From: an uncultured Lewinella sp.
Lineage (GTDB): Bacteria; Bacteroidota; Bacteroidia; Chitinophagales; Saprospiraceae
Assembly: GCA_964616365.1 (NCBI GenBank)
Contig: CAZTTF010000117.1
Span: forward strand, 156-64,155
DNA: 64,000 nucleotides
Reading direction: 5' to 3'
The first letter of the stretch is position 1. Each line of letters begins with the position of its first letter. A program made the translations under genes and the position numbers. Below the pieces are notes generated by a model that ran no database searches, was not told the DNA's origin, and saw only the letters and a program-made list of their open reading frames with translations. Shown piece by piece: positions 4,917 through 54,200 of this stretch.

Positions 4917-4956
4917 TGAGTCGACTGGTTTCTGCGTTGGCGGGTAGTTTGGTCAT

Positions 4957-24107: not shown

Positions 24108-25349
24108 TTATTCGTAGCGAAGACTTTCGATGGGATCCAGTGCCGCTGCCCGCAGGGCAGGGTAGAGGCCTGAGAGCAAGCCTACCACCGTACAGACAAT
24201 CAGGGCAATCCCGATCCATAACCACGGTATGATGAACGAGCCTCCGGCGAGCAGGGCAACGCCGTTACCGGCCAATACACCCAGGATGATGCCCAGGATA
24301 CCGCCCAATTGGCAGATAAAGATGGTTTCGATAAGGAACTGGAGCATCACGTTCCGGCGCGTAGCGCCGAGGGCTTTGCGTACACCGATTTCACGGGTCC
24401 GCTCCGTAACCGATACAAGCATGATGTTCATCAGACCAATTGCAGCCCCAAGCAGAGTCATTAAGCCAATGGCTACCGCTGCAAGGCGCAGGGTGACAGT
24501 ATTCTCTTTAATGATACCTACCAGGTCAGAGCTGTTTTCAATTTCGAAGTCATTTTCTTCTCCGGCTTTCAGTCGGCGGACTTTCCGCATCGTGATGGTC
24601 GCTTCGGCAATGGCGGCCTCAATTTTGGTAGGGTCGCGGACGGCGATCAATATATCATAGCTCTTTCTGCTGTTACCATAGTAGCGTTTGGCCGTCTGCA
24701 GTGGAATAATTACCCGATTGTCCTGGTTGCCGTTCATGGCGCTTCCCCGGCTTTCCAGGGTGCCAACTATGACCAAGCGAAGTGGTCCGGTAGTAATCTC
24801 TTTACCGATTGCATTACTTGCTTTTCCTTCGAAGAGGTTTTCTACAATTTCTGAACCGACAATGGCAATATTGCCTCCCTCTAAGGTTTCTCGCTCAGTA
24901 AAGTTCCGGCCAGATTTTACTTCGTATCCTTTACTGTTAAGGTAGTTGTTGCTGGCGCCCCAAATCGATACGTTGGGGTTTGTTTTCCGGTCCTGATAAC
25001 TCACTTCAGCTGCGCCAGAGGCGAAGGCGCTTACACTTACGTCTGCCGGGAAGTTGAACCGCTCCATGAACTCCATGGCCTGGTCATAAACGAAGGGGTC
25101 AGATTGTTTCCGTGGCCCGCGGCGGCCACCGCCGCCACGCAGGTTAGTACTTACCCGCTCAATCTCAATGGTGTTGGCGCCGAGGCTCGAGAGATTGGAG
25201 GATAGTGAGTAGATAGCAGCGTCGATTGCTGTCAGGATCCCTACAAGTGCCATAATGCCAACAGCAATGATTAAGGTTGTTAGTAGGGCACGCAGCAGGT
25301 TTGCCTGTACACTGCGAAAAGCCACCCGAAAGTTTTCTAGTAATCCCAT
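24108..25349 (-). CDS. ABC transporter permease, MacB/FtsX type
   Basis: 413 aa. N-terminal TM, large extracytoplasmic domain and C-terminal FtsX-type TM bundle with REIGVRKALGA. No ATPase gene adjacent. Confidence 0.8.
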   Translation of the reverse strand: MGLLENFRVAFRSVQANLLRALLTTLIIAVGIMALVGILTAIDAAIYSLSSNLSSLGANTIEIERVSTNLRGGGGRRGPRKQSDPFVYDQAMEFMERFNFPADVSVSAFASGAAEVSYQDRKTNPNVSIWGASNNYLNSKGYEVKSGRNFTERETLEGGNIAIVGSEIVENLFEGKASNAIGKEITTGPLRLVIVGTLESRGSAMNGNQDNRVIIPLQTAKRYYGNSRKSYDILIAVRDPTKIEAAIAEATITMRKVRRLKAGEENDFEIENSSDLVGIIKENTVTLRLAAVAIGLMTLLGAAIGLMNIMLVSVTERTREIGVRKALGATRRNVMLQFLIETIFICQLGGILGIILGVLAGNGVALLAGGSFIIPWLWIGIALIVCTVVGLLSGLYPALRAAALDPIESLRYE

Positions 25350-38651: not shown

Positions 38652-39473
38652 CTATACTTCGTTCAATCTGCCGGCACAGTATTTACAGTAAACTGCATCG
38701 TCATCGTGACCTTCCTCAGTACAGTATCTGCAGACCTGGGTGTTGTTTTTCTGGGACTTGCCGAAGTTCATCATCTCGTTAGTGACTATGCCAGTAGGGA
38801 CGGCAATGATGGCGTAGCCAAGAATCATGACGAGGGCAGAGAAGAACTGACCGATGTTTGTTTGGGGAGTAATGTCCCCATAGCCGACCGTAGTTAAAGT
38901 GACAATAGCCCAGTAGACAGCCCTGGGGATAGAACTGAAGCCTTCATTGGTGCCACCTTCGACGAGATACATGAAGGCCCCGATGATGACAACGAGCAGG
39001 CTTACCGCAAATAAGAATACCGTGATCTTATTACGGCTGGCAATCAGGGCTTTTCGGAGCTGATCTCCCTCGTTCAAGAATTTACCCAGCTTAAAAACCC
39101 GGAAGACCCGCAACAGCCTGAGGATACGGATTACAACTAAGTACTGAGTGCCGGCAAAAACAAGGCTGATGTAAGTTGGCATAATGGCCAACAGGTCTAT
39201 GATGCCGTAAAAGCTCAGTGCATACTTCATTGGCCGGATAGTTACCCACAGCCGCAAAAGGTACTCAAAAGTGAAAATGATGGTGAAAAACCATTCCAGG
39301 ACTACGAAGACATCGTGGTAGCGATTGTTCCATTCATCGGAACTCTCCAGACTTACGATCACAACCGAAAAGATGATCAGGACCATCAGGCTGATGTCGA
39401 AGATCTTCCCAAATCGGGTGTCAGCTTCAAAAATAACCTCATGGATACGGTCGCGTACCGGACGATCAGGCAT
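38652..39473 (-). CDS. Voltage-gated K+ channel (6-TM) with C-terminal zinc-ribbon
   Basis: 273 aa. S4 segment RILRLLRVFRVFKLGK, selectivity filter TTVGYGD and C-terminus CRYC-x11-CKYC. Confidence 0.85.
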   Translation of the reverse strand: MPDRPVRDRIHEVIFEADTRFGKIFDISLMVLIIFSVVIVSLESSDEWNNRYHDVFVVLEWFFTIIFTFEYLLRLWVTIRPMKYALSFYGIIDLLAIMPTYISLVFAGTQYLVVIRILRLLRVFRVFKLGKFLNEGDQLRKALIASRNKITVFLFAVSLLVVIIGAFMYLVEGGTNEGFSSIPRAVYWAIVTLTTVGYGDITPQTNIGQFFSALVMILGYAIIAVPTGIVTNEMMNFGKSQKNNTQVCRYCTEEGHDDDAVYCKYCAGRLNEV

Positions 39474-39704
39474 CGGGAATTACTTGTATTGACTCAAATG
39501 TAAGTAAAACGAGCTTGTCTGCAAGCTTTAAGGCCCGCCGCGATAGTGGGCAAAACTACTAATAGAAAAATCGTACATTTGTTTTCAGGCGACGTAGCGG
39601 CAACCCTCCTTCTTGGTTGGGTAACCTTACCTTGTTCCTGCGTCCGCGCACTAATTGCCACATGGCTTACAAAATGCTTTTCTGTACCTGATTAATTATT
39701 CTTT

Positions 39705-40469
39705 ATGCTCTTGAATGCAGTCATCGTCGAGGACGAGTTAAACGGCCTGATCAACCTCAAGCACTTGCTGGCAGAACACTGCAAAGATGTAGAGGTTATT
39801 GGGGATGCAGACGGTGTGGAAAGTGGTTTGAAATTGTTTGCCCAGGATGATATTACACCAGACGTAGCCTTTCTTGATATCAATCTACAGGATGGCAAGG
39901 TGTTTCAGTTACTGAATCGCCTTAATGAGGTCAATTTTGACATCATCTTCGTTACGGCTTACGACCAGTTTGCCATGAAGGCCTGCGAGTATTCCAGTAT
40001 CGGATATATTCTTAAACCCATTGATCCCGATAAATTAGTCGAAGCAGTTTCCCGGGTACGGCCACGGAATTCCGGGCGTACGGAGGAGCGTTTGAAGGTG
40101 ATGCAGAACTTCACTAATCACCCTAACTCGTTCGATAAGATGTCAATTGCGGCACTTGACGGCATCCACTTTGTGAAGATTAGGGACATTGTGCGCTTCG
40201 AAGCTGAAGATAATTATACCCACATCATGCTACGTGGAGGCAATCGGATCACGGCTTCCAAGACGATCAAAGCCTATGAGGACATGCTGTCACCGTTTAA
40301 TTTCTATCGTGTCCATAAACGTCACGTGATCAACATGAATTATATGAAAAAATTCGTCAAGGGAGAGGGGGGATACCTCGTGATGGATGATGACGTGAAG
40401 ATTGAAGTGAGCCGTCGGAGAAGGCCGGCATTCATGACGAGACTACGAGAACTTCAGGAAGTTCTTTAG
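39705..40469 (+). CDS. LytTR-family two-component response regulator
   Basis: 254 aa. Receiver domain (IVEDE, AFLDINL, FVTAY, ILKP) followed by a LytTR DNA-binding domain (FVKIRDIVRFEAEDNYTHI...YRVHKRHVIN). Confidence 0.9.
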   Translation: MLLNAVIVEDELNGLINLKHLLAEHCKDVEVIGDADGVESGLKLFAQDDITPDVAFLDINLQDGKVFQLLNRLNEVNFDIIFVTAYDQFAMKACEYSSIGYILKPIDPDKLVEAVSRVRPRNSGRTEERLKVMQNFTNHPNSFDKMSIAALDGIHFVKIRDIVRFEAEDNYTHIMLRGGNRITASKTIKAYEDMLSPFNFYRVHKRHVINMNYMKKFVKGEGGYLVMDDDVKIEVSRRRRPAFMTRLRELQEVL

Positions 40470-40581
40470 GTTCTTTGAGTTTTTTGAGCTATTTTTGTTT
40501 CGGTATATAATAACGGCTGAAAGGCGTCTCTAGCAAAGAGACCGGATTATTTTCAACGTGTACTTTATTAAGAATTATCCA

Positions 40582-40731
40582 ATGTCTAAAAACGGGAAAA
40601 AAACTATTGCGGAACTTCGGGGTGACCATAAGGATAACATCCTCGATTCCGACAAGATGGACCAGGTAACTGGAGGTAAGCGCAGTGGCACTTGGTTGCG
40701 TCGTGTTTACCACAGTATTGTCCCTCAATAA
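40582..40731 (+). CDS. Unannotated 49-aa peptide with double-glycine (GG) leader
   Basis: Hand-translated: MSKNGKKTIAELRGDHKDNILDSDKMDQVTGG|KRSGTWLRRVYHSIVPQ*. KxTIAxL...xGG resembles Bacteroidota GG-type precursor leaders. Lies between the RR and HK genes on the same strand. Below the length cut-off of the ORF track. Confidence 0.55.
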   Translation: MSKNGKKTIAELRGDHKDNILDSDKMDQVTGGKRSGTWLRRVYHSIVPQ

Positions 40732-40785
40732 TTAGAACTGGATGGCTCCGCGCGGTCTTTTTTCGGTTTAAAGGCCCTGCCAAAC

Positions 40786-42735
40786 ATGCAAACATCCGGT
40801 TCAGTCACTATTGAAGTAGGTACTCTTCAACGCAAGATTGCTGAATCCACTTCGGTGGAAGAAATCCTGATCTACCTCGAGCGGTTGATCAGGATTTTTA
40901 TTTACGTTGACCCTAAACAGGCCCATAACCATCTGCACGCAATGCAGGAGCTCCACGAGCGGGAGCGCGGAGGAGGCTTACCATTTTATTACCATCTGCA
41001 TCGGGCGAACCTTGCCAGCCTTGAATACGACGTTGAGCGCGCGCTCGATGAATTGGAGGCTGCCGTGAAAACCGTAGACCAGTACGGAGATATTACCGAA
41101 AAGATAGAGGTGTACCTCGATTACGTAGGGGTGCTGATCAACAACAAGGATTTGAAGAAAGCCCGGGATTATTTTGACCGGGCCGAGCGTCTCTTGGAGT
41201 CTTACCCCGATGAAATTCTGAAGGGTAGAGCTCTGGTTCGGGAGGGCTTCTTGTACGTTCACTCTTTCAGTTACGCGAAGGCAACACCCAAATTTCTGGA
41301 AGCTGATGGTATTTTTACGGCCAAGGAAGAGGCACTGTCGATTAAAGATCATTATTTCTATACCCTCTTGCACTCTGGTTTGGGCACCCTGCAGCTTCGA
41401 CCCGGAAACCTTTCTAAAGCGGCAGCCTCATTTCGTAAGGCCATTGAACGTTGTGAGGAAAAGGGCTTACGTGCACGTTTGGCCTGGCACCAGTTGAAGC
41501 TAGCTGACACTTTAGCGGCTGGCCTGGAATACGAGGAGGCTGTAGCCATTTACAACAGTGTACTCGCTCATTCTGGCTATGGGAGCCAGCAGGCTTTGGC
41601 CGCTACCTGCCATAACCTGGCCCTTTGTAAGTACCAGGCATCAGCGACCGTCGATCACCAAGAGATCAAAGGACTTCTTGATCAGGCAGAGGCACTCTTT
41701 CAGGCCTTGCCCAATCCGGACAAACAGAAATTGACTGCCATCGAAATTCTCCGGGCACAACTTGCTTTTGATGATGGAGACTATGATGGCGCTTCCTCTG
41801 CCCTCTGGCAGAGATTGCGGGAGCTGGAGCCAGACCAGAATCTTGATAATCCGATTGTCGTCGGGGCCACGGCTGAGATCTACCGCATCCTGGCCGAGTG
41901 CCATGCCAAGATGGAGGATTACAAATCGGCCTACACCCTACGCTTAATGTTCGATTACTACAACGAACAGCAGAACGGGCTGGAGGATTCACGATTACAG
42001 GAGGAATTTGCGGCGCGGTTTGCTGCCGCAACTTGGGAAAAAGAACGGGAAAGCTTGCAACTCCGGGCGTCCCAGTTGCAGCTCCGGGCATTGCGGGCGC
42101 AGATGAACCCCCATTTTCTTTTTAATGCCCTTAATAGCATCCAGTCGTTTATTACTACGCACGAGGCAAGCACCGCATCACGCTATCTGGCCAAGTTTGC
42201 CATGTTGATGCGACGCAGCCTCGAATATTCTAACCGGGAGTTCATCAGCCTTGAAGACGAAGTTCAGTTTCTGACGGAATACCTGGACGTCAACTGTAAA
42301 TTAAGATTCAGAGACAAGCTGCAATATTCCATTAAGGTTTCTCCGGAATTGGAGGAAGATGTTATCGGAGTCCCAACAATGATTATCCAACCCTACGTTG
42401 AGAATGCTATTGAGCACGGTTTGCGCTCAAGGCAGGAGGGGCGGATCACCGTCGAATTCGCCGTTGATCCCGAAGATGATGATAGCATTATCGCTACCAT
42501 CCTTGATGATGGAATCGGGCGAGAACAGGTTGCGAGAATGCATGCCGCTGACACCACGAGGAGCCAGCATCAGTCTCGTGGTACCAGCATTACCCAGTCG
42601 CGTCTGGAGTTGTTGTCCGGCACTAAGGAAGAACGCGTTGCCATAGATGACTTGTATCATGCTGATGGTAGAGCGGCAGGAACTTTAGTCCGGGTCAGAA
42701 TTCCCGTGGTTGACGTTGTTCCCAGGCGGGGGTAA
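40786..42735 (+). CDS. Soluble TPR-domain sensor histidine kinase (LytS/YehU-type His_kinase + HATPase)
   Basis: 649 aa. Phospho-His box MNPHFLFNALNSIQ, N box QPYVENAIEHG and G1 box LDDGIG. The ~430-aa N-terminal part is TPR-like repeats. No hydrophobic segment long enough for a TM helix. Confidence 0.85.
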   Translation: MQTSGSVTIEVGTLQRKIAESTSVEEILIYLERLIRIFIYVDPKQAHNHLHAMQELHERERGGGLPFYYHLHRANLASLEYDVERALDELEAAVKTVDQYGDITEKIEVYLDYVGVLINNKDLKKARDYFDRAERLLESYPDEILKGRALVREGFLYVHSFSYAKATPKFLEADGIFTAKEEALSIKDHYFYTLLHSGLGTLQLRPGNLSKAAASFRKAIERCEEKGLRARLAWHQLKLADTLAAGLEYEEAVAIYNSVLAHSGYGSQQALAATCHNLALCKYQASATVDHQEIKGLLDQAEALFQALPNPDKQKLTAIEILRAQLAFDDGDYDGASSALWQRLRELEPDQNLDNPIVVGATAEIYRILAECHAKMEDYKSAYTLRLMFDYYNEQQNGLEDSRLQEEFAARFAAATWEKERESLQLRASQLQLRALRAQMNPHFLFNALNSIQSFITTHEASTASRYLAKFAMLMRRSLEYSNREFISLEDEVQFLTEYLDVNCKLRFRDKLQYSIKVSPELEEDVIGVPTMIIQPYVENAIEHGLRSRQEGRITVEFAVDPEDDDSIIATILDDGIGREQVARMHAADTTRSQHQSRGTSITQSRLELLSGTKEERVAIDDLYHADGRAAGTLVRVRIPVVDVVPRRG

Positions 42736-42818: not shown

Positions 42819-43901
42819 CTATTTCTTAGTCTTCGCTCCGGAGATGATAATGCCGATATTATTGCTCTCTTTCTTCAACTGAGCGAGGGATTTTTTGCCT
42901 CCTTTGGTCGCAACATCATCTCCAAGAATGGAGGTATTTCCTTCGAAAAGACAGGATTCGGTGATGATACTACACTCACCAACCTCATTGGTCATATTGT
43001 AGACTGAGGAACCGTTGGACTTGGCAACGTTGTTTACAAATTGACAGCCTACGAGAAGCGGGACGGCAACGCCGTTCTCTCCATTATTGGTCATGGCTCC
43101 GCCGTATTTTGCTGCATTGTCTTGGAAGTAACAGTCCAGGAACTTTGCGTGTAGCTCCGTACCTTCTCCCATATTGTAGATGGCACCTCCTTTTGAATCA
43201 GCATGGTTATAGAGGAAGCGACAGTTTTCAAAGCTTGTAGCACCGGCACTTACATAAATCGCACCTCCGTTATGTGCCTTGTTCCGGGTGAACTCACAGT
43301 TTATCACCTGATGGGTAGGAAGGATGGAGGGCGTAGCTTCTATGTAGAGTGCTCCTCCGGCATTGCTGGCGCCAAAGCCATGCGTAAAGCCCCTCGCAGT
43401 ACCCTCAGTTATTTTAAAACCGTCAATCAGTGAAGGCTGACCACCACCAATGCGTAGTGTGACGACGGTGTAGGCGTTGTCACTATCTACTTGCTTATCT
43501 CCAATGTTGCCGGAAAGAATTGACCGGGTGTCGTGATGACGATCTGTTGGTCGTTGTTCATTGCCGTGAAAACCTCCGTAGACCTTAGTACCTGCGGGAA
43601 TAACGAAGCTGGCCAGTCGATCGTAGCCCTTGGTAGGGTAGTAGGTCCCCTTCATCACCCAGATTTCATCACCTGGCAAAGCAATAGCCAGTGCATTGGT
43701 GAGTGTGGTTGGAGCAGTCCAGGAATTACCAGCTTTCCCCTCGTCTCCCGCAGGAGAAACGAAGATTGTTGAGGCAGAGGTCGTACCACCAACAAGTGTG
43801 AGGAAAATAAATAACGCTAGATGCTTCAAAGCTGAATCCAATTTGCAAAGTCCCAAAAAATAGGTCGTCCTGTTTGGGAACCAGGAATAAGAAAAGAGCA
43901 A
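42819..43901 (-). CDS. Secreted parallel beta-helix repeat protein (Pmp-like GGAI repeats)
   Basis: 360 aa. Hydrophobic signal region LALFIFLTLVGG. Repeated GGALYIEA / NGGAIYVSA / KGGAIYNMG / YGGAMTNNG / NGSSVYNM. The true start may lie downstream of 43901. Confidence 0.55.
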   Translation of the reverse strand: MLFSYSWFPNRTTYFLGLCKLDSALKHLALFIFLTLVGGTTSASTIFVSPAGDEGKAGNSWTAPTTLTNALAIALPGDEIWVMKGTYYPTKGYDRLASFVIPAGTKVYGGFHGNEQRPTDRHHDTRSILSGNIGDKQVDSDNAYTVVTLRIGGGQPSLIDGFKITEGTARGFTHGFGASNAGGALYIEATPSILPTHQVINCEFTRNKAHNGGAIYVSAGATSFENCRFLYNHADSKGGAIYNMGEGTELHAKFLDCYFQDNAAKYGGAMTNNGENGVAVPLLVGCQFVNNVAKSNGSSVYNMTNEVGECSIITESCLFEGNTSILGDDVATKGGKKSLAQLKKESNNIGIIISGAKTKK

Positions 43902-44302
43902 ATGGAATTATACAGAGATAAGGTCCTGCGAATTAATGCTGGCAACACTCAAGCAGTAGAGGGTTGCATCGCAGATTTGGTAGTGTAAAATACTCTCTTA
44001 GTGTCAAACTCGAACAGCCCGTTGTCATCCGGGTCTGTAAATATACCATTTCTCGGTAAAAGCGGATCTATAATCGAAATAATTGCTGTTTTCGTTAGGG
44101 AACGGTATTGAAAATTTAAGGACCGGAATTATGTAAATTTCTCTAAAGCGTCGTACATTGCTGTCATATTCATATTCTGACATGGGAGGCGCGGCTCTTT
44201 TAGCCGTTTGAAATTAACTATTAACCAAGTGTGACCCTCTGGGGTCGACATCGTCGAACACTGTGTCAACACATGCGAATATTCTCATCTTTTATCGAAA
44301 AA

Positions 44303-45373
44303 ATGGCTATGTCTCATCTGCGCCTAGTGCTGGTGGTACTCCTTTTGGGGGTGCTGCCCAATCTTGTTGTTGCCCAAGATTTTCATTATTCCCAATTCTA
44401 CAGTGCCCCTCTTCACCTTAACCCTGCTTTGACCGGAATTTTTCGTGGAGATGTCAGGCTGATGGGCAATTATAAGTCTCAGTGGACAGACGTCCCCGTA
44501 GATTACAAGACGGTTACGCTGGCTGTTGATAAGAAGTTCCTGAAAGTTGCCGGAGAAAACAACAGCTTCTTCTCAGGAGGAATGGCCTTTAACTACGATC
44601 GGGCAGGGGATAGCAAGATGACCTGGGCAAACCTTGATCTTAATGCTTCCTACACGAAAGCCTTCTCTCCAAAGGTAATTATCAGTGGCGGAGCTAAAGC
44701 AGCTATCGTTCAACGGAGTTTTGACACAGGAAACCTGCGCTACAACAACCAGTTTGACGAAGTCCGGGGCAGTGTGAACCCCGACCTTCCGACCGGAGAG
44801 AATTTTAACAACGACGGCAATCTCTTCCCTGACTTTAGCCTGGGAGTAAACCTTCGTCTACAGGCAGAGCAGACCAGTGACCTTGTTTTCAGAAATGACC
44901 GGCGGTCTAAACTTGATCTCGGAGTCGCTCTTCATCACCTGTTCGCCCCGGATCAGTCCTTTTTTGATGACATCAAGGTTCCGATTGAGAGAAGACTCAG
45001 TCCTTACGCCATTGCTACGCTGCAAGTCCTTCCTGCTGTGGACATCCGCGCGGCAGTTACGTACCAGAATCAAGGCCCTTTCTACGACGAATTGGTGGCT
45101 ACTTTGGGCGGACAGTTTTGGGTAAAGAACACACTTGGCAAACAAGTAAGTATCATGGCAGGAATGGGACTACGCAGGGATAAGATTCAGGATTCCTACT
45201 GGCCAACCTTTGAGGTGACTTACAATAATTGGCAGGTCGGGTTGAATTATGATTTTAACACCAGTCCGTTTGACATTGCAACCGAAAACCGTGGCGGCTT
45301 AGAACTTTCTGTACGCTACATCATCAGAAAGATCCGACCTCTCCCCGAATTCAAAGTTTGTCCTTTGCTTTAA
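44303..45373 (+). CDS. PorP/SprF-family type IX secretion system membrane protein
   Basis: Signal peptide then QDFHYSQFYSAPLHLNPALTGIF...YKSQWT signature. Start moved to MAMSHL (44303) from the GTG at 44231. Confidence 0.85.
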   Translation: MAMSHLRLVLVVLLLGVLPNLVVAQDFHYSQFYSAPLHLNPALTGIFRGDVRLMGNYKSQWTDVPVDYKTVTLAVDKKFLKVAGENNSFFSGGMAFNYDRAGDSKMTWANLDLNASYTKAFSPKVIISGGAKAAIVQRSFDTGNLRYNNQFDEVRGSVNPDLPTGENFNNDGNLFPDFSLGVNLRLQAEQTSDLVFRNDRRSKLDLGVALHHLFAPDQSFFDDIKVPIERRLSPYAIATLQVLPAVDIRAAVTYQNQGPFYDELVATLGGQFWVKNTLGKQVSIMAGMGLRRDKIQDSYWPTFEVTYNNWQVGLNYDFNTSPFDIATENRGGLELSVRYIIRKIRPLPEFKVCPLL

Positions 45374-45408
45374 TCATCAATCCCTAGAATACATCCCAAC
45401 TACTGAAT

Positions 45409-48165
45409 ATGTCCAGATTACTCTTAATCATCTTAGCTATATTACTCTTATTTGGCGGACTGAGCGCTCAGAACCAAGGGTTTGATAGTTACATCGCAGC
45501 TGGGGACACCGCTGTGGCTAAAAGGAACTTTTATAACGGTTACAAATACTACTCAATCGCCAGCGAGGATGGCTGGTCAGAGTCCAAAAATTACGAAGCA
45601 CGTATTGCAGAGGTATTGTATAAGGCAGGATTATCTGCTTACCATGCCACGGCCTATGTGCCAGCTGAACAGTACTTCCTGAAGTTACTAGCTCGTCCTG
45701 ATGGTGATAAATACGAGCTAGCAAGATTTTATCTTGCACAATCTACTTTCCGCCAGGGGCGCTATGATCAGGCAGTAGTGCATTACGAGGACTTCCTGGA
45801 GAACTCCCCAAGTGCTCCCATCATCTTCCGTAAGCGCGCGGAAACGCAGATCAGTGATGCTGATCAGGCCATTATTAGAATGTCTCGCGGTACCGAAGCA
45901 CAAATGATGCATTTACCCAATGGTATCAATACGGAGGATTCAGATTTTATGTATGTCCATGGACCGAAAGGTACACGTTTCTACTCCTCTAACAATTTCA
46001 AGTTTAAGGGGGATAAACTGATTTCTAAAAGATTGCTCTCCCGGATCATGAAAAGAACGGGAGAGGCTAGTGGAGAACCTCTTCCTAAAACCATCAATAT
46101 TCCCAATAAAAACGTTAGTCATACTTCCTTTAATACGGATATGAGTAAAGTGTATTACTCTGTTTGTGAGTGGGTAGCTTATGATGAACTGCGTTGTGAT
46201 CTTTACGTAGCGGATGTAGATAAAGATGCCAACTGGACCAACCCGGTAAAACTTCCCATCAATCAGGAAGGGTTTTCCACGACGATGCCAAGCTTTGGTC
46301 ACTCACAGGCGGATGGAAAAGACTATCTATATTTTTCCTCTAACCGCCCCGGGACCATAGGCGAGTTCGACCTCTATCGGGCGGAGGTTCAATCGAATAA
46401 TACATTTGGTGAAATAGAGCCACTGACAAATATCAACACCGTCGGGAACGACGTTGCACCCTTCTGGTACAATAAACTTCAGACGCTTTATTTCGCTACT
46501 GATGGACGATTTTCTTTTGGTGGACTCGACATCTATAAGTCGTTCAATATCAAAGGAGAATTTAAGGATCCGGTCAACATTGGTTTGCCAGTAAACAGTT
46601 CCGCAGACGATGCTTATTACACCAGATTTGATGACCCGGGAAGAGGATATGTTGCAAGTCGTAATGCTACCAGTGACGCTCTTTATTACACAGAAGAGCG
46701 AGACGTTTGTTGTTACGATATTTATGAGTTCGAACCTGATCCCCGGGTAGCTCTTCGTGCGCTTACCATTAATGGACTTACCGACGAAGAATTGATCGGA
46801 GCAACGGTGAAACTGTGTAAGATCACGCCCAACGGGCCGGTTGAAGTAGATGAAATCACTAACCTTGACGGCAATAACTTTGACTTTCAGGTAGAACCAG
46901 GTGAAATGTACCAGCTAAAGGCGACTTTAGATGGTTTTACCAGCGTAATCGACGAGTTTGACCTCTCAGAAGAACAATATGAAGATGTTCCTTACGTCGA
47001 GCGTATCCTGCCTATGGTTCCCGCAGTTAAGCTGGACGTCTACACCTTCAATAATATTGACGGACAAAGCCTTCCTGGAGCCCCGGTTACGATTTACGAG
47101 GTAACTGAATCCGGGGAACTCGTTAAAGTAGCTGAAAAGATTAACCCACTAGCTAATGACACGCATTTTGAACTGGAAATAGGCAAGAAGTACAAAGTTG
47201 TTGGCAAAAAGCCTGGTTTCGGTGAAGATTACGAAATAGTCGATCTTACTGACTATGACCCTAATGAAGGTTCAGGTACCATGCGCGTTGACCTTAGCCT
47301 GGGGCAACTGCTCGATGTCTATGTCATTGATGCTAAAACTGAGCTACCGCTCAGTTCGGCTACAGTCGCGCTGACAATTATGGAAATTTCCAAGACTGAG
47401 TCTTCCACAAATACTTCAGGGAACGATTTCCATTATGTCGTTAACCTGGATCAGGAGTTCAAAATTGAGGTGACCAGAAACGGTTACTTCCCCCGTGACG
47501 TCACTCTTCGGTTCTCAGAAGAGGACGTAGAACGTTTTGATGGCCGCCTGGCAGTTACCATCCCTATGGTAAACGATGATATCAATGCATTCCTTGATTT
47601 CCGTGTCTACTTCGATAACGATCACCCTGATCCGGACGCCTATCGTTCTACTACGAATAAGTCTTACGATGAAACTTTTGGCCCTTACCTGGAGCGGAGA
47701 GATACTTTCGTTGCTCGGATAGCGCGAGGGATGGAAGCTGAAGAAGGTTTCTTACTGAGTCAGGAGGTAAGTGAGTTTTTTGACGAGCAGGTAATCGCTG
47801 GATATGACGACTTGCTCAAGTTGGCCGATGCACTTGTAGTGCATATGGAAAACGGACGTACATACCAGATCAACATGGTTGGTTTTGCCAGCCCCAGAGC
47901 CCCGGATTATTACAACATGTTACTTAGTGGACGTAGGAATGCCTGCCTCAGAAACTTCTTTGAAAGGTATGAAGAAGGCGCCCTGTCGGAGTACATGGAC
48001 AGCGAACAGCTATCATTTACCTCTGAAAGAAGGGGAGAAGAAAAAGACCTCGGTCGAATCTATGAGTTGATCGAAGAGGAGCGTGTTTCGATATTTAGCG
48101 TTGAGGCTTCCCTTGAGCGTCGGGTTGAATTCCCGAAGATTTTCAATAATAATTCAAGAAAATAA
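45409..48165 (+). CDS. OmpA-family protein with TPR, TolB-like beta-propeller and CarboxypepD_reg-like domains
   Basis: 918 aa. Signal peptide. PD40-like YFSSNRPGTIGEFDLYRAEV. Repeated ~80-aa beta-sandwich modules. C-terminal OmpA-like MVGFASPRAPDYYNMLLSGRRNACLRNFF. Confidence 0.7.
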   Translation: MSRLLLIILAILLLFGGLSAQNQGFDSYIAAGDTAVAKRNFYNGYKYYSIASEDGWSESKNYEARIAEVLYKAGLSAYHATAYVPAEQYFLKLLARPDGDKYELARFYLAQSTFRQGRYDQAVVHYEDFLENSPSAPIIFRKRAETQISDADQAIIRMSRGTEAQMMHLPNGINTEDSDFMYVHGPKGTRFYSSNNFKFKGDKLISKRLLSRIMKRTGEASGEPLPKTINIPNKNVSHTSFNTDMSKVYYSVCEWVAYDELRCDLYVADVDKDANWTNPVKLPINQEGFSTTMPSFGHSQADGKDYLYFSSNRPGTIGEFDLYRAEVQSNNTFGEIEPLTNINTVGNDVAPFWYNKLQTLYFATDGRFSFGGLDIYKSFNIKGEFKDPVNIGLPVNSSADDAYYTRFDDPGRGYVASRNATSDALYYTEERDVCCYDIYEFEPDPRVALRALTINGLTDEELIGATVKLCKITPNGPVEVDEITNLDGNNFDFQVEPGEMYQLKATLDGFTSVIDEFDLSEEQYEDVPYVERILPMVPAVKLDVYTFNNIDGQSLPGAPVTIYEVTESGELVKVAEKINPLANDTHFELEIGKKYKVVGKKPGFGEDYEIVDLTDYDPNEGSGTMRVDLSLGQLLDVYVIDAKTELPLSSATVALTIMEISKTESSTNTSGNDFHYVVNLDQEFKIEVTRNGYFPRDVTLRFSEEDVERFDGRLAVTIPMVNDDINAFLDFRVYFDNDHPDPDAYRSTTNKSYDETFGPYLERRDTFVARIARGMEAEEGFLLSQEVSEFFDEQVIAGYDDLLKLADALVVHMENGRTYQINMVGFASPRAPDYYNMLLSGRRNACLRNFFERYEEGALSEYMDSEQLSFTSERRGEEKDLGRIYELIEEERVSIFSVEASLERRVEFPKIFNNNSRK

Positions 48166-48224
48166 TTACGCCTTAGCGTATTTAACTAAAGCATTTTATC
48201 GTGAAACCAATGCTGACACTTACA

Positions 48225-51200
48225 ATGAAACACCTTGGACGTATACTAGGATTATTCCTGGTGGCACTCTGTGTTTTTCCTTCTTCTGTAGTAGCGACCG
48301 GTATTCAGGACGTAGCCCCAACAGCTGCTGATGCACCAGTTATGTTGGAAGCCGGCCGCCCTGGATTTGGCATTTTTGCCGAGTTTAATGGCCCCGAGGA
48401 TGGACGCCTCGTCGTTTCCATCGGTGATGCTTCAGAAGTACTTTATATTGGCCTGGCGCCAGAATACCGGGACAACGGGAGCCCTTTTAGCAGTGATAAC
48501 TTCTCACGTTATCGCTTTCAGATTCGTCAAATCACCTCTGATGGGACCAACCCGGTCGTTCACGGCCCCTTTACGATTGATAACGACAATGCTAACGTAA
48601 ACAGCTATGCTGAAGCAGCTTTTGGCGTGTATGAACTTGGGGAGACTCAGTTTGGAGATTCAATCTACGTTTTCCGGCCAGATGCTGCAGGAGAGTACTC
48701 TATTGAATTTGATGAATTCACTAATGATGGTAGCGCAAGGGTGACTATTCCTTTCTGGGATTTTACGGTTGTTCGTAACGGTTCACCGGTGGAAGGCCGC
48801 CTATGGTCACGGGGCTGGGCTTTTCGGACTCCGCAGGTAGATGGCTCAATCCAGCCAGATTGTGTTTGGGACCGTGAATTCAACGGCAACCTGTATAGCT
48901 ATACCGATGACGGGTTTGTATCCAGAATTAACTTTGTTAACTCGGGGCTGCAAGGCCTGTCGTTCAATATGGCATTTAACGAGAGAGGACCAGGGCAGAG
49001 TGGCGATATTGCTGCTGACAGGCAATCAATACCTGATGCGAACGGTACGGATGATGCAGCGCAACATCGAATCTTCCTTGATCTACCAGACATTAATCTA
49101 TTCCCTGATGGGGTATGTGGAGAAATCGACGCAGCACAAACTTTTACTTGTGATGGCGCTGCACCTTACTGTCTCGATGTGGCTGTGACTCGTCCTGGGC
49201 AGGTTAACATCATCCTCGATTTCAATGGGAATGGCGTTCTCGATGACAATAGCGAAGACGTCGCACTTGTGTATGATTTTGCCCCAGATGAACTTTCGAC
49301 TTGTGTCCCTTGGGACGGGCTTCGTGGAGATAGTACAGTCGCGGATTTTACTGATACTGTGGACATCATCATTACTTACTCTCAAGGTATTCAGCACTGG
49401 TCAGCATTTGATGTAGAATTCATGCGAAATGGTTTCTGTGTTGAAACCATCCGGCCAATTTGTCCGGGAACCATCTCGAGTGATATACTTTACTGGGACG
49501 ATCGTAATATCACTGAGGACCCAGGAACCGGATCCCCTAAGGATAACCGCAGCGGCAGTACTTGTCTTTTGACACCTCGTACCTGGGACTTCTTCGAGTT
49601 GAACAGTCCACAGTGTGATGACTTCGACGATGCCCTTACGAACGGTTACGGTGATAAGAATACGCTTAACACGTGGTGGTTCGCAAACAGTAGGTCTGAA
49701 TTCAGAGCTCGAGTTCCGGTGGTTTCTGCCAACATTACTGGTAGGACTGATTTCTGTTCTGGTGATGTATCCACGCTCGTTGCCTCTGATCCGGTTGCAA
49801 CCGGTCCGCTGACCTACCTATGGTCGGGCCCTGGAGTTGACGGCATGACCAATGATTCCATTGATGTTTCAGTAACCGGGCAGTACTGTGTAGTGGTGAG
49901 CGACGAGCTTGGTTGCTCAAACCAAACCTGTGTTGATGTGACGGTATTCGAGTTTGATTCTGATCAATTTCCTCCTGGCCTCTCGATCTGTTTTGGTGAC
50001 TCTATTCAAATGCCGGTTGCAGGTGATCCTACATTCACTTACGTCTGGACTCCGTCAATTGGTATTAGCTCAACTACATCAAACCAACCAACTTTTAGTC
50101 CGCAAGTAACAACAACTTATATTGCTACCATCAGTGGGGCATCCACTACGGGAGAGATATGTGAAATAACGGAAGAAATCACCATTGAGGTTGCTCCAGA
50201 AATAGGCCTTCAGGTCTTCGGTGGAGGCCCTATCTGCGACGAAACAACAACCATCATTGCTACAACGGTGAACCCAGCTACTGTTGAACTATTTGGCCCT
50301 GACGGTACGCTTATTGGCACCGGTAATGAATTTACCGTTCCGGTTAGTGGAGAGACAGATTATAGCCTGATTGCAACTAACACCCAGGGCTGTGTGGACT
50401 CAGCAAGCTTTACCGTTAGTGGCGGACCAGTAAATATTGAGGTGCCAGACTCAGTACTTACTTGTGTAAGTGATGGCGTGATGCTGGGGGTTACGAACCT
50501 TGACCCTAATGATATGCTCACTTACACGTGGTCTCCGGCAAACCTTTTCAGTCCTGCTTCCGTCAATACCGCAAACCCTGTGTTTGTCGGAGAACAAGGA
50601 GATTATACTGTTTCCGTTGTGGTGGAAAACCAGTACGGTTGTAGCGTTGAAGAGCAAGTTCAACTAATCGTTATTGACGATAACACAACGCTCTCCTTTG
50701 AGCCGGTTATTGATTGTGATGGTAGGACTGTAACCTTTGACAATACCAGTTCCGTAACCTTTGGTTATGTATACGACTTTGGGGATGGAACAATGAGTAA
50801 TGATGCTTCCCCGACCCACGTTTACCAGACTGCAGGAACCTTTACAGTGACTTTGGATCTTATCTATGATCAGGATTGTGTCGCTAGCTTTAGCCGCGAG
50901 GTTACCACCTTCGAAACACTAGTTGAAGCTGACTTCTCTATCGACTTCGGCAATTGTGATAATGGTAGTGCAACACTTCAATTTTTCGATCAGTCTGTGA
51001 ACCAGACAGGAGAACCATTGAACTACGCATGGACTTTCACCGGAGCCTCTCCGGCAAGCTCCTCGCTGGCAAATCCTATCGTTACTGTTGGTAACTCGGG
51101 CACGGTCACGGCCACGCTTATGGTGACTACAGTGGATGATTGTCCTTCTTCTTTGGATACGACAGTCACGGTTAATTTAGCAGTCGTTAACCTTCAGGAT

Positions 51201-54200
51201 GAGATTATCATCTGCCCGGGAGAGACAACACCATTAAATCCCGGTGGTAATCCGGATCTGATTTATAGCTGGTCACCAGCGCCTGATTTTGACGCAGATG
51301 CAGTTAACCCAGTTACTGGAACAGCTGGTACTTACATCGTAACGGTTACTAGTAATACTGCAGACTTCAACTGTGAAACTACAGACACAGTTACGGTTAT
51401 CATTCCTGATGATATTGGACTTGTAGTAAGTGGTCCCGATGGGCCAATCGATGATGATCCATTCTTACTCTCGCAGCTCCAAACTTGTGGAAATGCAATA
51501 GACTTGAGCATCGACCTTATGGTTAATGATGGTGTGACCGTTACCTACACCAGTACCGACGGAACGGTACTAGGCACAGGAAGTACTTTCTCCCTCAATC
51601 CTGATTCCAGAGATACCGTAATCATTACGGCGGTCAATGAATTCGGGTGTATTGAAAGCGATACGGTGGCGGTAATCAACCGCCAGGTTGATGCAGGCAT
51701 TGATATCGGTGCCGACGGCATCACCCTTTGTTCTGATGTAGATACTACGCTCAGCGTAGTTAACTTCGACCTTAGAGATACGCTTAGCTACCAGTGGGAG
51801 CCCAATGCGATTATCAACGGTCCTCTGGATGGGCCTACTGTAAGCATTACCAGCCCACTAGATGGAATCATCGACTTAATGGTTACGGTGACTAACCAGT
51901 TCGACTGTGATACCATGATCACAGTTCCAGTAATAGTGATACCTTTTACGCCTAACGACTATCCAGACGTTATCGAACCATGTTTTAGAGAACCATTCAC
52001 TATTGTAGGAGGTCCTGCACTTGATGGTTACACTTACGTATGGACGCCTAACGGTGACCTCGATTTAACGGATCCGGCAAATCCGGTGGGAACTTTTACC
52101 GAGGATGGTTCACTTGAGGTTGTCATCACTGATGAGACGACTGGCTGTACAATTACCAGGACGATCATCGTCGATACTGCTCCTGAGATCAGCTTTAGCG
52201 TTGATCCCGTTGAAACTGACATTTGTGGTACTGGGGTGGTTACAGTCACGGGGACTTCTGTGAATAGCAATGTAGTCATCACGTGGTACAACGATCCCGG
52301 ATTAACCGATGTCGCAGGTGTCGGTGCTACCATTGATATCAACGCTGATGTGATGGGCCAAACCTTCACCATCTTCGGCCAGGCACTGGATCCTTCAACC
52401 GGTTGTTCGCAGGTTGTTTCTGCTTCGGTAAATGCATTGGTATTCACGCCAAATATGTACCCTGAAGTTGTGACTCCATGTTTCGGAGACCCAATTACAA
52501 TTGAGGGCGGTGACGCAGTCGCTGGTTACACTTATGAGTGGACGCCTAACGGAGATTTAGATTTAACGGACCCCGCCAACCCGGTTGGCGTCTTTACCGA
52601 AGACGTGGAGCTTGTAGTGGTCATTACCGATCCAGTTACGGGCTGTTCCGTAAATGATACGGTATTCGTTGATACTGCCCCGGAAATCAGCTTTAGTGTG
52701 GAGCCTGAGCAAACAGACATCTGTGGTACTGGTGTAGTAACGGTCACCGGTTCATCCGTAAACGACAATATTGTTATCACTTGGTACAATGATGCTGCAC
52801 TTACTGATGTAGCTGGTGTTGGTCCGACGTTTGATATTGACGCGAATGCCATGGGACAAACCTTTACCATATTCGGACAGGCGGTAGATCCAACTACCGG
52901 ATGTGCGCAGGTTGTTTCAGCTTCCGTTAATACCCTGATTTTTACACCAAATATGTATCCTGAGGTTGTAACACCTTGTTACGGCGAACCGATTACCATC
53001 GTAGGAGGGGCTACTGTTGCCGGTTACACTTACGAGTGGACACCCAATGGTGATCTTGATCTTTCTGACCCGGCAAACCCCATCGGTGTATTTACCGAGG
53101 ATGTTGAATTAGTTGTGGTAATCACAGACCCGGTTACGGGTTGTACCGTAAACGACACTGTATTCGTTGACACCGCTCCGGAAATCAGCTTCAATGTTGA
53201 CCCTGCAGAAACGAACATCTGTGGAACAGATGTAATCACCGTAACGGGCACTTCAGTAAATGATAATGTTGTCATTACCTGGTACAGTGATGAAGACTTG
53301 ACCAATGCAGTTGGCACAGGCCCAACCTTCGATATTGACGCCAATGTGATGGGATCTACCTTCACCGTATACGGTGAGGCCCTTGACCCTGCAACGGGTT
53401 GTTCTCAGGTTCTGCCTGCTATGGTCAATACAATCATCTTCATGCCAAATGATTTCCCAGATACGGTGACACCGTGTTTTGGAGAGCAATTCACGATTGT
53501 TGGCGGAGATGCAGTAGCTGGCTACACCTACGACTGGATGCCCAGCGATGGATTAGACCTTTCCGATCCCGCTAACCCCGTTGGTGTGTTTACGGAAGAT
53601 GTAGAGCTGGTAGTTACCATTACTGATCCACTAACGAATTGTTCTATTAACGATACCATCTTTGTGGACACCGCTCCTGAGATAGCCTTTACGGTTGATC
53701 CCCCACTGACAAACATTTGTGGTACGGGTATAGTGAATGTTGATGGTGCTTCTCCCAACGAAGACGTCGTGATCACCTGGTATAATGACCCTGAGTTAAC
53801 GGATGTGGCAGGTACCGGACCACGCTTCACCATTTTCGCTGATGTTATGGGGCAAACTTATACCATTTACGGTGAGGCGGTTGATACCATCACGGGCTGT
53901 TCTCAATCGCTACCCGCATCGGTAGTAACCACCGAATTTACGCCAAACCAGTACGAAGATGTTGTGACGCCTTGTTTTGCGGAAGCCTTCACGCTTGTTG
54001 GAGGGGATATCATTGATGGGTACACCTATACTTGGAACCCAAGTGACAACCTCGATTTGACTGATCCGGCAAACCCCGTCGGCATATTTACGGAGGACAC
54101 TGATATTTCCGTAACCATCACTGATCCTGAAACGGGATGTACTGAAACGCAGAATATTTCGGTGCAAGTACTCCCCGAAATCAGTTTCATGGCGAGCTCC

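What the first reader, a model, noticed from the sequence alone, without database searches (positions are those of the whole stretch)
39705..42735. ComCDE-like three-gene module in Bacteroidota: LytTR regulator, hidden GG-leader peptide and soluble TPR histidine kinase
Seen: three co-directional genes separated by short gaps. The first is a LytTR response regulator (39705-40469) with an intact receiver domain (AFLDINL, FVTAY, ILKP). The second is an ORF too short for the supplied track (40582-40731, MSKNGKKTIAELRGDHKDNILDSDKMDQVTGG|KRSGTWLRRVYHSIVPQ). The third is a 649-aa histidine kinase (40786-42735; MNPHFLFNALNSIQ, QPYVENAIEHG, LDDGIG). Its ~430-aa sensor region is TPR-like and has no membrane-spanning stretch. 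Established: Firmicute pheromone circuits (ComCDE, BlpCHR, PlnABCD) consist of a GG-leader peptide, a kinase and a LytTR regulator. RRNPP receptors bind re-imported peptides with cytoplasmic TPR domains. Inference: this locus combines both logics. I do not know of a described peptide-sensing circuit with this architecture in Bacteroidota.
Basis: partly seen in the sequence, partly recalled or inferred. Interest (0 to 1): 0.85.

Follow-up and report, generated by a model that had tools for sequence, protein, structure and literature searches.

The report
Conserved peptide gene wedged in kinase pair
A tiny unannotated gene for a secretion-leader-type peptide is kept between a DNA-binding response regulator and a membrane-free TPR sensor kinase in most relatives sampled from a bacterial order, which suggests (but does not prove) peptide signalling of a kind not described for Bacteroidota.

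Summary
The LytTR response regulator (39705-40469), the 49-codon ORF (40582-40731) and the 649-aa kinase (40786-42735: TPR array, PF06580 and HATPase core, no membrane segment) are all as described.

The small ORF is a real gene. A homologous 45-57-codon ORF sits just upstream of the kinase gene in 28 of 36 ortholog loci from Saprospirales. It is absent from 44 loci of unrelated PF06580 kinases. dN/dS is 0.02-0.04. In most loci it has its own promoter box and its own terminator.

Family consensus: MGKSKK..L.DLKKD.....DMKKI.GG, a basic core, then NGCGGI[VL]PQ-stop. This fits a double-glycine leader. The window lineage has YHSIVPQ.

A voltage-gated-type K+ channel gene (38652-39473) is a frequent fourth neighbour.

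The function is inferred, not shown. The peptide is most likely the ligand or partner of the cytoplasmic TPR domain. No C39/ABC exporter, importer or modifying enzyme lies near any locus, so export followed by re-import is untested.

The kinase is LytS-type, not ComD-type, and the output is not RRNPP-like. I class it as a new variant of peptide-linked two-component signalling. I found no published description. Interest 0.65.

The parts
38652..39473 (-). Voltage-gated-type K+ channel: S4 with RxxR repeats, TVGYGD filter, C-terminal CxxC...CxxC ribbon. Candidate fourth member or target of the module.
   Evidence: Pfam Ion_trans 2e-35 and Ion_trans_2 1.4e-16. It is adjacent to the module in 16 of 28 loci. 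It stays adjacent when moved to just downstream of the kinase in L001 and L002. The ribbon and filter are conserved. It is also present in L085-L088.
39574..39581 (+). Bacteroidota-type -7 promoter box (TACATTTG) upstream of the regulator gene.
   Evidence: It lies in the block 'tagaaaaatcgtacatttgt', which is conserved with L081 and L083 in an otherwise diverged spacer. That this is a promoter box rests on the known TAnnTTTG consensus.
39705..40469 (+). LytTR-family response regulator, 254 aa, with receiver residues D58, T84 and K104.
   Evidence: Pfam Response_reg plus LytTR. Nearest NCBIfam models are LytR and BtsR, both below cutoff. It lies upstream of the peptide gene in 25 of 28 loci at 50-96% identity.
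40490..40497 (+). -7 promoter box (TATTTTTG) of the peptide gene.
   Evidence: It is conserved in L081, L083 and L002. TAnnTTTG(TAC) stands at the equivalent place in most loci. TATTTTTGTA is the only 10-mer enriched over shuffles, in 11 loci against a shuffle maximum of 7.
40582..40731 (+). Peptide gene, 49 codons plus stop. Leader is 40582-40677 (MSKNGKKTIAELRGDHKDNILDSDKMDQVTGG). Core is 40678-40728 (KRSGTWLRRVYHSIVPQ, net charge +4).
   Evidence: A conserved ORF in 28 ortholog loci, L081 and L083. dN/dS is 0.02-0.04. M1, the GG and the penultimate Pro are invariant. There are 151 protein clusters, with no Pfam family. Weak hits to GG-leader models. No Rfam match.
40740..40763 (+). Short GC palindrome followed by a T-run after the peptide stop codon. 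Terminator-like and weak in this lineage.
   Evidence: At least 15 other loci have a long GC-rich hairpin plus T-run at the same place, for example L005, L009, L012, L013, L015, L020, L025 and L026. The window element did not pass the simple terminator scan.
40786..41910 (+). Kinase residues 1-375: cytoplasmic TPR-like superhelix of 19 helices, about 9 hairpins. Proposed peptide-binding sensor.
   Evidence: AlphaFold2 model with pLDDT mostly 86-97 over this stretch. Top Foldseek PDB matches are Rap-pheromone complexes, LGN/Pins and NprR-NprX. TPR Pfam hits. No membrane segment.
41920..42102 (+). Kinase residues 379-439: one 60-residue helix joining the TPR array to the phospho-accepting region.
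   Evidence: Secondary structure of the model.
42079..42708 (+). Kinase core: PF06580 His_kinase (residues 432-512, invariant H443) and HATPase_c (residues 533-641; N540, D574, G576 and G578 invariant).
   Evidence: Pfam. Invariant columns in 21 orthologs. The profile matches PDB entry 6swj 'Histidine kinase' at 4.6e-18.

Best explanation
This is a vertically inherited signalling module of Saprospirales: a LytTR regulator, a small peptide gene and a soluble TPR kinase, often with a K+ channel gene next to it.

The small gene makes a 45-57-residue precursor with a double-glycine-type leader and a short basic core. In most of the family the core ends in ...NGCGGI[VL]PQ-COOH.

**Proposed mechanism**
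1. The core, through its conserved free C-terminus, binds the concave face of the kinase's cytoplasmic TPR superhelix.
2. Binding is passed along the 60-residue helix and changes autophosphorylation at H443.
3. The phosphoryl group moves to D58 of the LytTR regulator, which then changes transcription. Candidate targets are the neighbouring channel gene and the peptide gene itself.

**Most likely route**
An unlinked C39-peptidase ABC exporter cleaves the precursor after GG and exports it. The mature peptide is sensed after it re-enters cells. This would be an autoinducer-like loop with a cytoplasmic receptor that is a kinase rather than a transcription factor.

**Shown:** gene reality, selection, synteny, domain make-up, solubility of the kinase, and independent transcription signals.

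**Inferred:** cleavage, export, re-entry, TPR binding and the regulon.
For: - **Linkage:** the peptide ORF lies directly upstream of the kinase gene in 28 of 36 ortholog loci and in none of 44 unrelated PF06580 kinase loci. Starting from five peptide clusters, four sit as regulator-peptide-kinase and one as regulator-peptide.
- **Linkage survives rearrangement:** the peptide gene stays with the kinase where the regulator is not adjacent (L004, L017, L028). It stays with the regulator where the kinase is elsewhere (L084).
- **Selection:** dN/dS is 0.02-0.04 with dS above 1.
- **Leader:** GG is invariant, with consensus (D/E)-M-K-K-I-x-G-G. GG-leader models give weak hits.
- **C-terminus:** its position and motif are conserved, and the stop codon always follows directly.
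- **Sensor:** the kinase has no membrane segment. Its TPR array is confidently modelled and most resembles the peptide-binding TPR proteins Rap, NprR and LGN.
- **Catalytic competence:** kinase invariant columns are. Regulator residues were read from the translation.
- **Divergence pattern:** the regulator is 58-80% identical across distant loci where the kinase is 34-49%. The TPR part averages 39% identity and the kinase core 63%.
- **Weak co-variation:** core-peptide distance tracks TPR distance after controlling for the kinase core (partial r 0.39). Leader distance does not (-0.08).
- **Transcription:** the peptide gene has its own promoter box and terminator.
Against: - No C39/ABC exporter, oligopeptide importer or modifying enzyme lies in the window or in about 90 related loci.
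- Sensing an exported peptide in the cytoplasm of a two-membrane cell needs uptake across both membranes. I know of no precedent for this with a histidine kinase.
- The conserved polar TPR residues (N119, R152, D188, E224, R231, W234, N277) are also kept in kinase clades that have no adjacent peptide gene.
- Close relatives show almost no peptide diversification, unlike many pheromone systems.
- No LytTR-type direct repeats were found upstream of the peptide, regulator or channel genes.
- The structural matches have moderate TM-scores (0.55-0.63) and are what any long TPR solenoid might give.
- The co-variation result has no significance test.
Confidence: 0.4

Rival explanations
1. The small protein acts only inside the cell, either never exported or as an export-coupled checkpoint. 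The uncleaved 45-57-residue protein binds the TPR domain in the cytoplasm and sets kinase activity. Its level is set by transcription, by proteolysis, or by removal through a GG-dependent exporter. The kinase would then report the cytoplasmic pool, much as FlgM export frees sigma-28.
For: - The sensor is cytoplasmic.
- No importer or exporter is linked to the module in any locus.
- The peptide is strongly conserved rather than diversified.
- TPR domains commonly bind the C-terminal tails of partner proteins (general knowledge), and the C-terminus is the most conserved part of the core.
Against: - If the protein is never exported, the invariant GG and the leader-like spacing of hydrophobic and acidic residues have no explanation.
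- The checkpoint version still needs an exporter, and none has been found.
Confidence: 0.25
2. The kinase senses something other than the peptide. Examples are another cytoplasmic protein, such as the zinc-ribbon tail of the neighbouring K+ channel, or a metabolite. The peptide is then an output or a neighbour with a separate role.
For: - Kinase paralogs with no adjacent peptide gene keep the same conserved TPR residues.
- The channel gene is a conserved neighbour with a conserved cytoplasmic Cys4 tail.
- The peptide gene is an independent transcription unit.
Against: - Peptide-kinase adjacency (28 of 28 peptide-bearing loci in the kinase scan) is tighter than channel adjacency (16 of 28).
- There is weak core-TPR co-variation.
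- If the peptide is merely an output, its physical linkage to the kinase where the regulator is not adjacent (L004, L017, L028) is unexplained.
Confidence: 0.2
3. The peptide is a small cationic bacteriocin, and the two-component pair only regulates its production.
For: - Double-glycine leader and a short lysine/arginine-rich core.
- Weak hits to the bactofencin A family model (4 of 19 members, best E 0.014) and to TIGR01847.
- JGI labels some members 'bacteriocin-like'.
Against: - The gene sits at a stable chromosomal position beside housekeeping genes (PBP1C, DoxX, fumarase) across a whole order.
- dN/dS is 0.02-0.04.
- There is one copy per locus.
- No immunity, transporter or accessory gene is adjacent.
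- Bacteriocin loci are usually patchy, mobile and fast-evolving (general knowledge).
Confidence: 0.1

Closest known systems
ComCDE / BlpCHR / PlnABCD three-component pheromone circuits of Firmicutes
   Same: - A double-glycine-leader peptide gene is clustered with a histidine kinase and a LytTR response regulator.
- The peptide gene is small and easily missed in annotation.
   Different: - The kinase here has no membrane sensor and has a PF06580 (LytS/BtsS-type) core, not a ComD/AgrC-type core.
- The sensor is a cytoplasmic TPR array.
- No ComAB-type exporter is nearby.
- No direct-repeat boxes were found.
- The peptide gene is monocistronic.
- The host is a two-membrane Bacteroidota bacterium.
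RRNPP(A) cytoplasmic peptide receptors (Rap-Phr, NprR-NprX, PlcR-PapR, Rgg-SHP, AimR-AimP)
   Same: - A cytoplasmic TPR superhelix is encoded next to a small peptide gene.
- The best structural matches of the sensor are Rap-pheromone and NprR-NprX complexes.
   Different: - The output here is a histidine kinase, not an HTH domain or the Rap N-terminal bundle.
- The propeptide is entirely hydrophilic with a GG leader, not a Sec-type or SHP-type peptide.
- The family is described as a Firmicutes one (PMC9765709 abstract).
- Sequence similarity to Rap is only at the generic TPR level (E 1.8e-5 to 8e-5).
LytS-LytR / BtsS-BtsR / YpdA-YpdB two-component systems
   Same: - A PF06580 plus HATPase_c kinase core is paired with a LytTR regulator.
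- The nearest NCBIfam models for the regulator are LytR and BtsR.
   Different: - Those kinases carry a multi-pass 5TM-Lyt membrane domain and a GAF domain, and sense membrane state or pyruvate (own knowledge).
- Here a 375-residue soluble TPR array replaces that module, and a peptide gene is attached.
TIGR04149-type GG-leader peptides of Bacteroidota (rSAM-modified RiPP precursors) and bacteroidetocin-like GG peptides
   Same: - The leader style is the same (...E/D-M-K-K-I-x-G-G) and so is the phylum.
- 8 of 19 members give sub-threshold TIGR04149 hits.
   Different: - No radical-SAM maturase or transporter is adjacent.
- The core is unrelated.
- The partner genes are a two-component pair.
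Peptide signalling through PCAT-type exporters in a Gram-negative filamentous cyanobacterium (HetC of Nostoc; PatS-type peptides acting on cytoplasmic HetR)
   Same: - It gives a precedent, in a two-membrane and often filamentous bacterium, for a ribosomal peptide signal whose receptor is cytoplasmic.
- PMC10986499 proposes that HetC exports a signalling peptide. The PatS/HetR part is from my own knowledge.
   Different: - The proteins are unrelated.
- The receptor there is a transcription factor, not a kinase.
- No homology was tested here.

Membership tests
ComCDE/BlpCHR-type peptide pheromone three-component system | Precursor peptide with a double-glycine leader, encoded beside the kinase and regulator genes | tested here: met
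   GG is invariant, with hydrophobic residues at -4, -7, -12 and -15 and an acidic residue at -8. Hits to GG-leader models are weak. The gene sits between the regulator and kinase genes.
ComCDE/BlpCHR-type peptide pheromone three-component system | Polytopic membrane kinase of the ComD/AgrC (HPK10) type that senses extracellular peptide | tested here: not met
   No hydrophobic segment in 21 orthologs. The core is PF06580 His_kinase.
ComCDE/BlpCHR-type peptide pheromone three-component system | LytTR-family response regulator | tested here: met
   Response_reg plus LytTR.
ComCDE/BlpCHR-type peptide pheromone three-component system | Dedicated C39-peptidase ABC exporter (ComAB-like) | tested here: inconclusive
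   None among the window ORFs of at least 400 aa that were scanned. No ABC protein of at least 450 aa in the window or the 83 loci held at that point. None in the +/-10 kb gene tables. Whole genomes could not be searched.
ComCDE/BlpCHR-type peptide pheromone three-component system | Autoinduction through direct repeats upstream of the peptide or operon promoter | tested here: inconclusive
   K-mer counting and direct-repeat scans found only the -7 promoter box.
RRNPP(A) peptide receptors | Cytoplasmic TPR domain that binds a short peptide | tested here: inconclusive
   The sensor is soluble. Top fold matches are Rap, NprR and LGN at TM 0.55-0.63. Binding itself cannot be tested with these tools.
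RRNPP(A) peptide receptors | Output through an N-terminal HTH domain or the Rap phosphatase/anti-activator bundle | tested here: not met
   The output is a C-terminal PF06580 plus HATPase_c kinase.
RRNPP(A) peptide receptors | Propeptide exported by Sec or PptAB and re-imported by an oligopeptide permease | not testable with these tools
   The peptide has no hydrophobic signal segment (sequence). No permease gene is nearby.
LytS/BtsS-LytR/BtsR two-component family | PF06580 His_kinase plus HATPase_c core with a LytTR partner | tested here: met
LytS/BtsS-LytR/BtsR two-component family | N-terminal 5TM-Lyt membrane sensor (with or without GAF) | tested here: not met
   No such Pfam hit and no membrane segment. 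The N-terminal 375 residues are TPR.
TIGR04149 GG-leader rSAM-modified RiPP precursors | Match to the family model above its cutoff | tested here: not met
   The window peptide has no hit at E up to 1. 8 of 19 relatives hit only weakly, best E 2.4e-4.
TIGR04149 GG-leader rSAM-modified RiPP precursors | Adjacent radical-SAM/SPASM maturase | tested here: not met
   Conserved neighbours are the K+ channel, DoxX, an FAD oxidoreductase and PBP1C.

The most novel reading that the evidence does not exclude
This is the first peptide-based cell-to-cell signalling circuit of Bacteroidota, and a new receptor class. A double-glycine peptide would be exported and then sensed inside the cell by an RRNPP-like TPR domain fused directly to a histidine kinase. 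The circuit would be coupled to a voltage-gated-type K+ channel, in a largely filamentous lineage. That raises the possibility of communication along filaments.
Probability: 0.3. Interest if true: 0.85.

Novelty: new variant of a known kind. Interest (0 to 1): 0.65.

Why it matters
Peptide pheromone signalling is textbook biology for Firmicutes but essentially undescribed for Bacteroidota. PCAT-exported signalling peptides in Gram-negative bacteria are only now emerging (PMC10986499).

- **A defined, testable candidate.** The module has a peptide of known sequence, a soluble and therefore easily purified sensor domain, and a canonical kinase-regulator pair.
- **Cultured strains carry it.** They include Neolewinella marina MKG-38, Lewinella sp. 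JB7 and Lewinella cohaerens DSM 23179. A MAG labelled Haliscomenobacter hydrossis DSM 1100 (L027) carries it too, and peptide cluster P0125 occurs on an 8.37-Mb contig.
- **If the TPR domain binds the peptide,** this would be a third way of wiring peptide sensing: a cytoplasmic TPR receptor that signals by phosphotransfer.
- **Annotation lesson.** The gene is missing from the source assembly although at least 151 protein clusters of it exist.

Tried and rejected
1. **Co-folding peptide and kinase.** The two genes are in the same frame, separated by one TAA. The tool refuses translations that contain a stop codon, and it returns no contact or PAE data anyway. Abandoned.
2. **LytTR binding sites.** K-mer enrichment over 26 upstream regions gave only the -7 promoter box (the first attempt timed out). 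Direct-repeat scans of the channel-regulator spacers found nothing shared.
3. **Sigma-70 and terminator consensus scan of the window.** Results were at background level.
4. **RNA alternative for 39400-41000.** No Rfam match at E up to 1. An attenuator-uORF reading is rejected because the amino-acid sequence itself is under selection.
5. **Read-through fusion of peptide and kinase.** Only 10 of 27 loci share the frame, which is the chance level.
6. **Linked exporter or maturase.** None was found.
7. **A second peptide copy in L087.** The extra 48-aa call is unrelated sequence.
8. **TPR residues specific to peptide-linked kinases.** The conserved polar residues are shared with the clades that lack a peptide gene.
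9. **Literature.** Six full-text searches found no description of this module.


Full report
**1. Observation**

- Pfam assigns Response_reg plus LytTR to 39705-40469.
- Pfam assigns TPR-type repeats, His_kinase (PF06580, residues 432-512) and HATPase_c (residues 533-641) to 40786-42735.
- Pfam assigns nothing to the 49-residue product of 40582-40731.
- NCBIfam places the regulator nearest LytR and BtsR, below cutoff, and has no model for the peptide.
- The kinase has no membrane segment. The best 19-residue Kyte-Doolittle mean is 1.17, and at most 1.56 in 21 orthologs. A neighbouring membrane protein used as a control scores 2.6.
- The AlphaFold2 model (mean pLDDT 83.8) shows 19 helices in a TPR-like solenoid over residues 4-375. 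A single 60-residue helix follows (379-439), then the kinase core.

**2. Is the small ORF a gene?**

The kinase has hundreds of full-length relatives of about 640-660 residues. All the named ones come from Lewinellaceae, Saprospiraceae, Haliscomenobacter or Phaeodactylibacter, which belong to order Saprospirales, class Saprospiria (PMC10384058 abstract).

A scan of one genome per species returned 36 loci with a full-length ortholog.

- In all 25 loci where the cognate regulator lies upstream, the spacer holds a 45-57-codon ORF with the same design.
- A profile built from these ORFs finds exactly one copy directly upstream of the kinase gene in 28 of the 36 loci. It finds none in 44 loci of unrelated PF06580 kinases.
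- The 8 loci without it fall into two separate kinase clades (6 loci) and three scattered cases. None of the 8 has the cognate regulator next to it either.
- Close relatives (L081 and L083, kinase 79-80% identical) differ from the window peptide gene by 19-20 synonymous and 4-5 non-synonymous changes. This gives dN/dS of 0.025-0.036 with dS above 1.
- Gene callers did call the ORF in those assemblies.
- The exact window peptide is absent from the protein collection, so it was missed in the source record.
- The family comprises at least 151 clusters at 90% identity. They are labelled 'hypothetical' or, by JGI, 'bacteriocin-like', and none has a Pfam domain.
- The reverse test also holds. Starting from five peptide clusters, four lie in regulator-peptide-kinase order and one in regulator-peptide order with the kinase elsewhere.

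**3. Anatomy of the peptide**

The alignment gives M-G-K-x-K-K..L.D-L-K-K-D...(D/E)-M-K-K-I-x-G-G, then a lysine/arginine/asparagine-rich stretch of 8-14 residues, usually with a Trp or Phe, then N-G-C-G-G-I-[VLIM]-P-Q and the stop codon.

- Only M1, the two glycines and the penultimate proline are invariant.
- The residues before GG fit the double-glycine leader consensus: hydrophobic at -4, -7, -12 and -15, acidic at -8. The consensus itself is from my own knowledge.
- Eight of 19 members give sub-threshold hits to TIGR04149, five to TIGR01847 and four to the bactofencin A model.
- The window lineage has Y-H-S in place of C-G-G, so the cysteine is not essential everywhere.

**4. Transcription signals**

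- The peptide gene has its own Bacteroidota-type -7 box, TAnnTTTG (window 40490-40497). This is the only motif enriched over shuffles.
- In at least 15 loci a strong GC hairpin plus T-run follows directly after the stop codon. In the window lineage the equivalent element is weak.
- The peptide gene is therefore a separate, probably monocistronic unit lying between the regulator and kinase genes.
- No Rfam family matches the region.
- No LytTR-type direct repeats emerged.

**5. Surroundings**

- Clustering the ORFs of 28 loci shows one further recurrent partner: a voltage-gated-type K+ channel (window 38652-39473, minus strand). It has an S4 arginine ladder, a TVGYGD filter and a conserved C-terminal CxxC...CxxC ribbon.
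- The channel gene is adjacent in 16 of 28 loci. It is usually divergent from the regulator gene. In L001 and L002 it has moved to just downstream of the kinase gene yet remains adjacent.
- Other recurrent neighbours are housekeeping genes (DoxX, an FAD oxidoreductase, PBP1C, fumarase), which indicates stable vertical inheritance.
- No C39/ABC exporter, permease or maturase lies in the window or in any locus.

**6. What the sensor resembles**

- Foldseek against the PDB ranks Rap proteins bound to their pheromones first (8rsv, 8rst, 8rtc, 8rte, 4gyo). LGN/Pins peptide complexes and NprR-NprX follow (E 5e-7 to 7e-6, target TM 0.55-0.63).
- A sequence profile matches consensus TPRs, kinesin light chain, RapJ (1.8e-5) and Rap105 (8e-5). 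The kinase core matches 6swj.
- This is consistent with a peptide-binding TPR. It is also what any long TPR solenoid might give.
- Across loci the regulator is far more conserved than the kinase: 58-80% against 34-49% for the distant loci.
- Within the kinase the TPR part diverges fastest, at 39% against 63% for the core.
- Core-peptide distances track TPR distances after controlling for the kinase core (partial r 0.39), whereas leader distances do not (-0.08). This is a weak hint with no significance test.
- The conserved polar TPR residues are shared with the clades that lack a peptide gene.

**7. Mechanism**

I commit to the peptide being the ligand or partner of the cytoplasmic TPR domain, controlling phosphotransfer from H443 to D58 of the LytTR regulator.

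- The most likely route (0.4 for the whole chain) is GG-dependent cleavage and export by an unlinked PCAT, followed by sensing after re-entry.
- The main rival (0.25) is that the uncleaved protein acts only in the cytoplasm, possibly as an export-coupled checkpoint.
- Less likely: the kinase senses something else, such as the channel tail (0.2), or the peptide is a bacteriocin (0.1).
- None of the binding, cleavage or transport steps is shown.

**8. Comparison and novelty**

- The module shares the GG peptide and LytTR regulator logic of ComCDE/BlpCHR. It fails the defining membrane-kinase feature.
- It shares the 'cytoplasmic TPR beside a small peptide gene' logic of RRNPP. It fails that family's output and propeptide features.
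- Its kinase core belongs to the LytS/BtsS family but lacks that family's membrane sensor.
- Six full-text searches found no description. An RRNPPA survey speaks only of Firmicutes (PMC9765709).
- I class it as a new variant of a known kind, with interest 0.65. The gene-level finding is solid and gives a testable system in cultured strains. The signalling claim remains inference.

Noticed in passing
window 38652-39473 (-); L001 7797-8648, L002 7926-8753 and 13 other loci: A voltage-gated-type K+ channel gene (TVGYGD filter) with a conserved C-terminal Cys4 ribbon (TQxCRYCxxEGHDDDAxYCKYCGxxL) keeps company with the regulator-peptide-kinase unit in 16 of 28 loci, even after rearrangement. It may be a target or an input of the system.
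   Followed up: partly
window 42819-55217: A type IX secretion-style cluster lies downstream: a beta-helix/PMP-repeat protein (minus strand), PorP/SprF, a 918-aa TPR/PD40 protein and a 2338-aa giant protein whose L081 ortholog has a CHU_C domain. It is conserved only in the close relatives L081 and L083, so it is probably not part of the module.
   Followed up: partly
window 40555-40563; L005, L010, L013, L008, L009, L004, L003 about 25 nt before the peptide ATG: The 5' untranslated region has a conserved block, TCCCGTG-like (AACGTGTAC in the window), and an 'ACTATG' start context. An AAAAAAATGT block lies about 55 nt upstream of the -7 box in four loci. Function unknown; these could be regulator sites.
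   Followed up: partly
L023, between the peptide gene and the kinase gene (about 4940-5050): A tandem array of a 12-nt unit (ACCTTATCAACC), about 14 copies, fills the spacer.
   Followed up: no
window 40729-40788: The peptide and kinase genes are in the same reading frame, separated by a single TAA and 18 sense codons. Only 10 of 27 loci share the frame, so this looks like chance rather than programmed read-through.
   Followed up: yes
L084 9016-10150; L011: In a Haliscomenobacter-like lineage the regulator and peptide genes stay together while the kinase gene lies elsewhere in the genome (L011 holds a lone kinase gene). The peptide gene is therefore linked to both partners, not only to the kinase.
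   Followed up: partly
L087 3092-7885, L088 81-2607; window 24108-25349 (-): A MacB-type ABC/FtsX efflux set with a membrane-fusion protein sits next to the channel gene in L087 and L088. A MacB_PCD/FtsX gene also lies 14 kb upstream in the window. These genes are common in Bacteroidota, and the link to the peptide is unknown.
   Followed up: no
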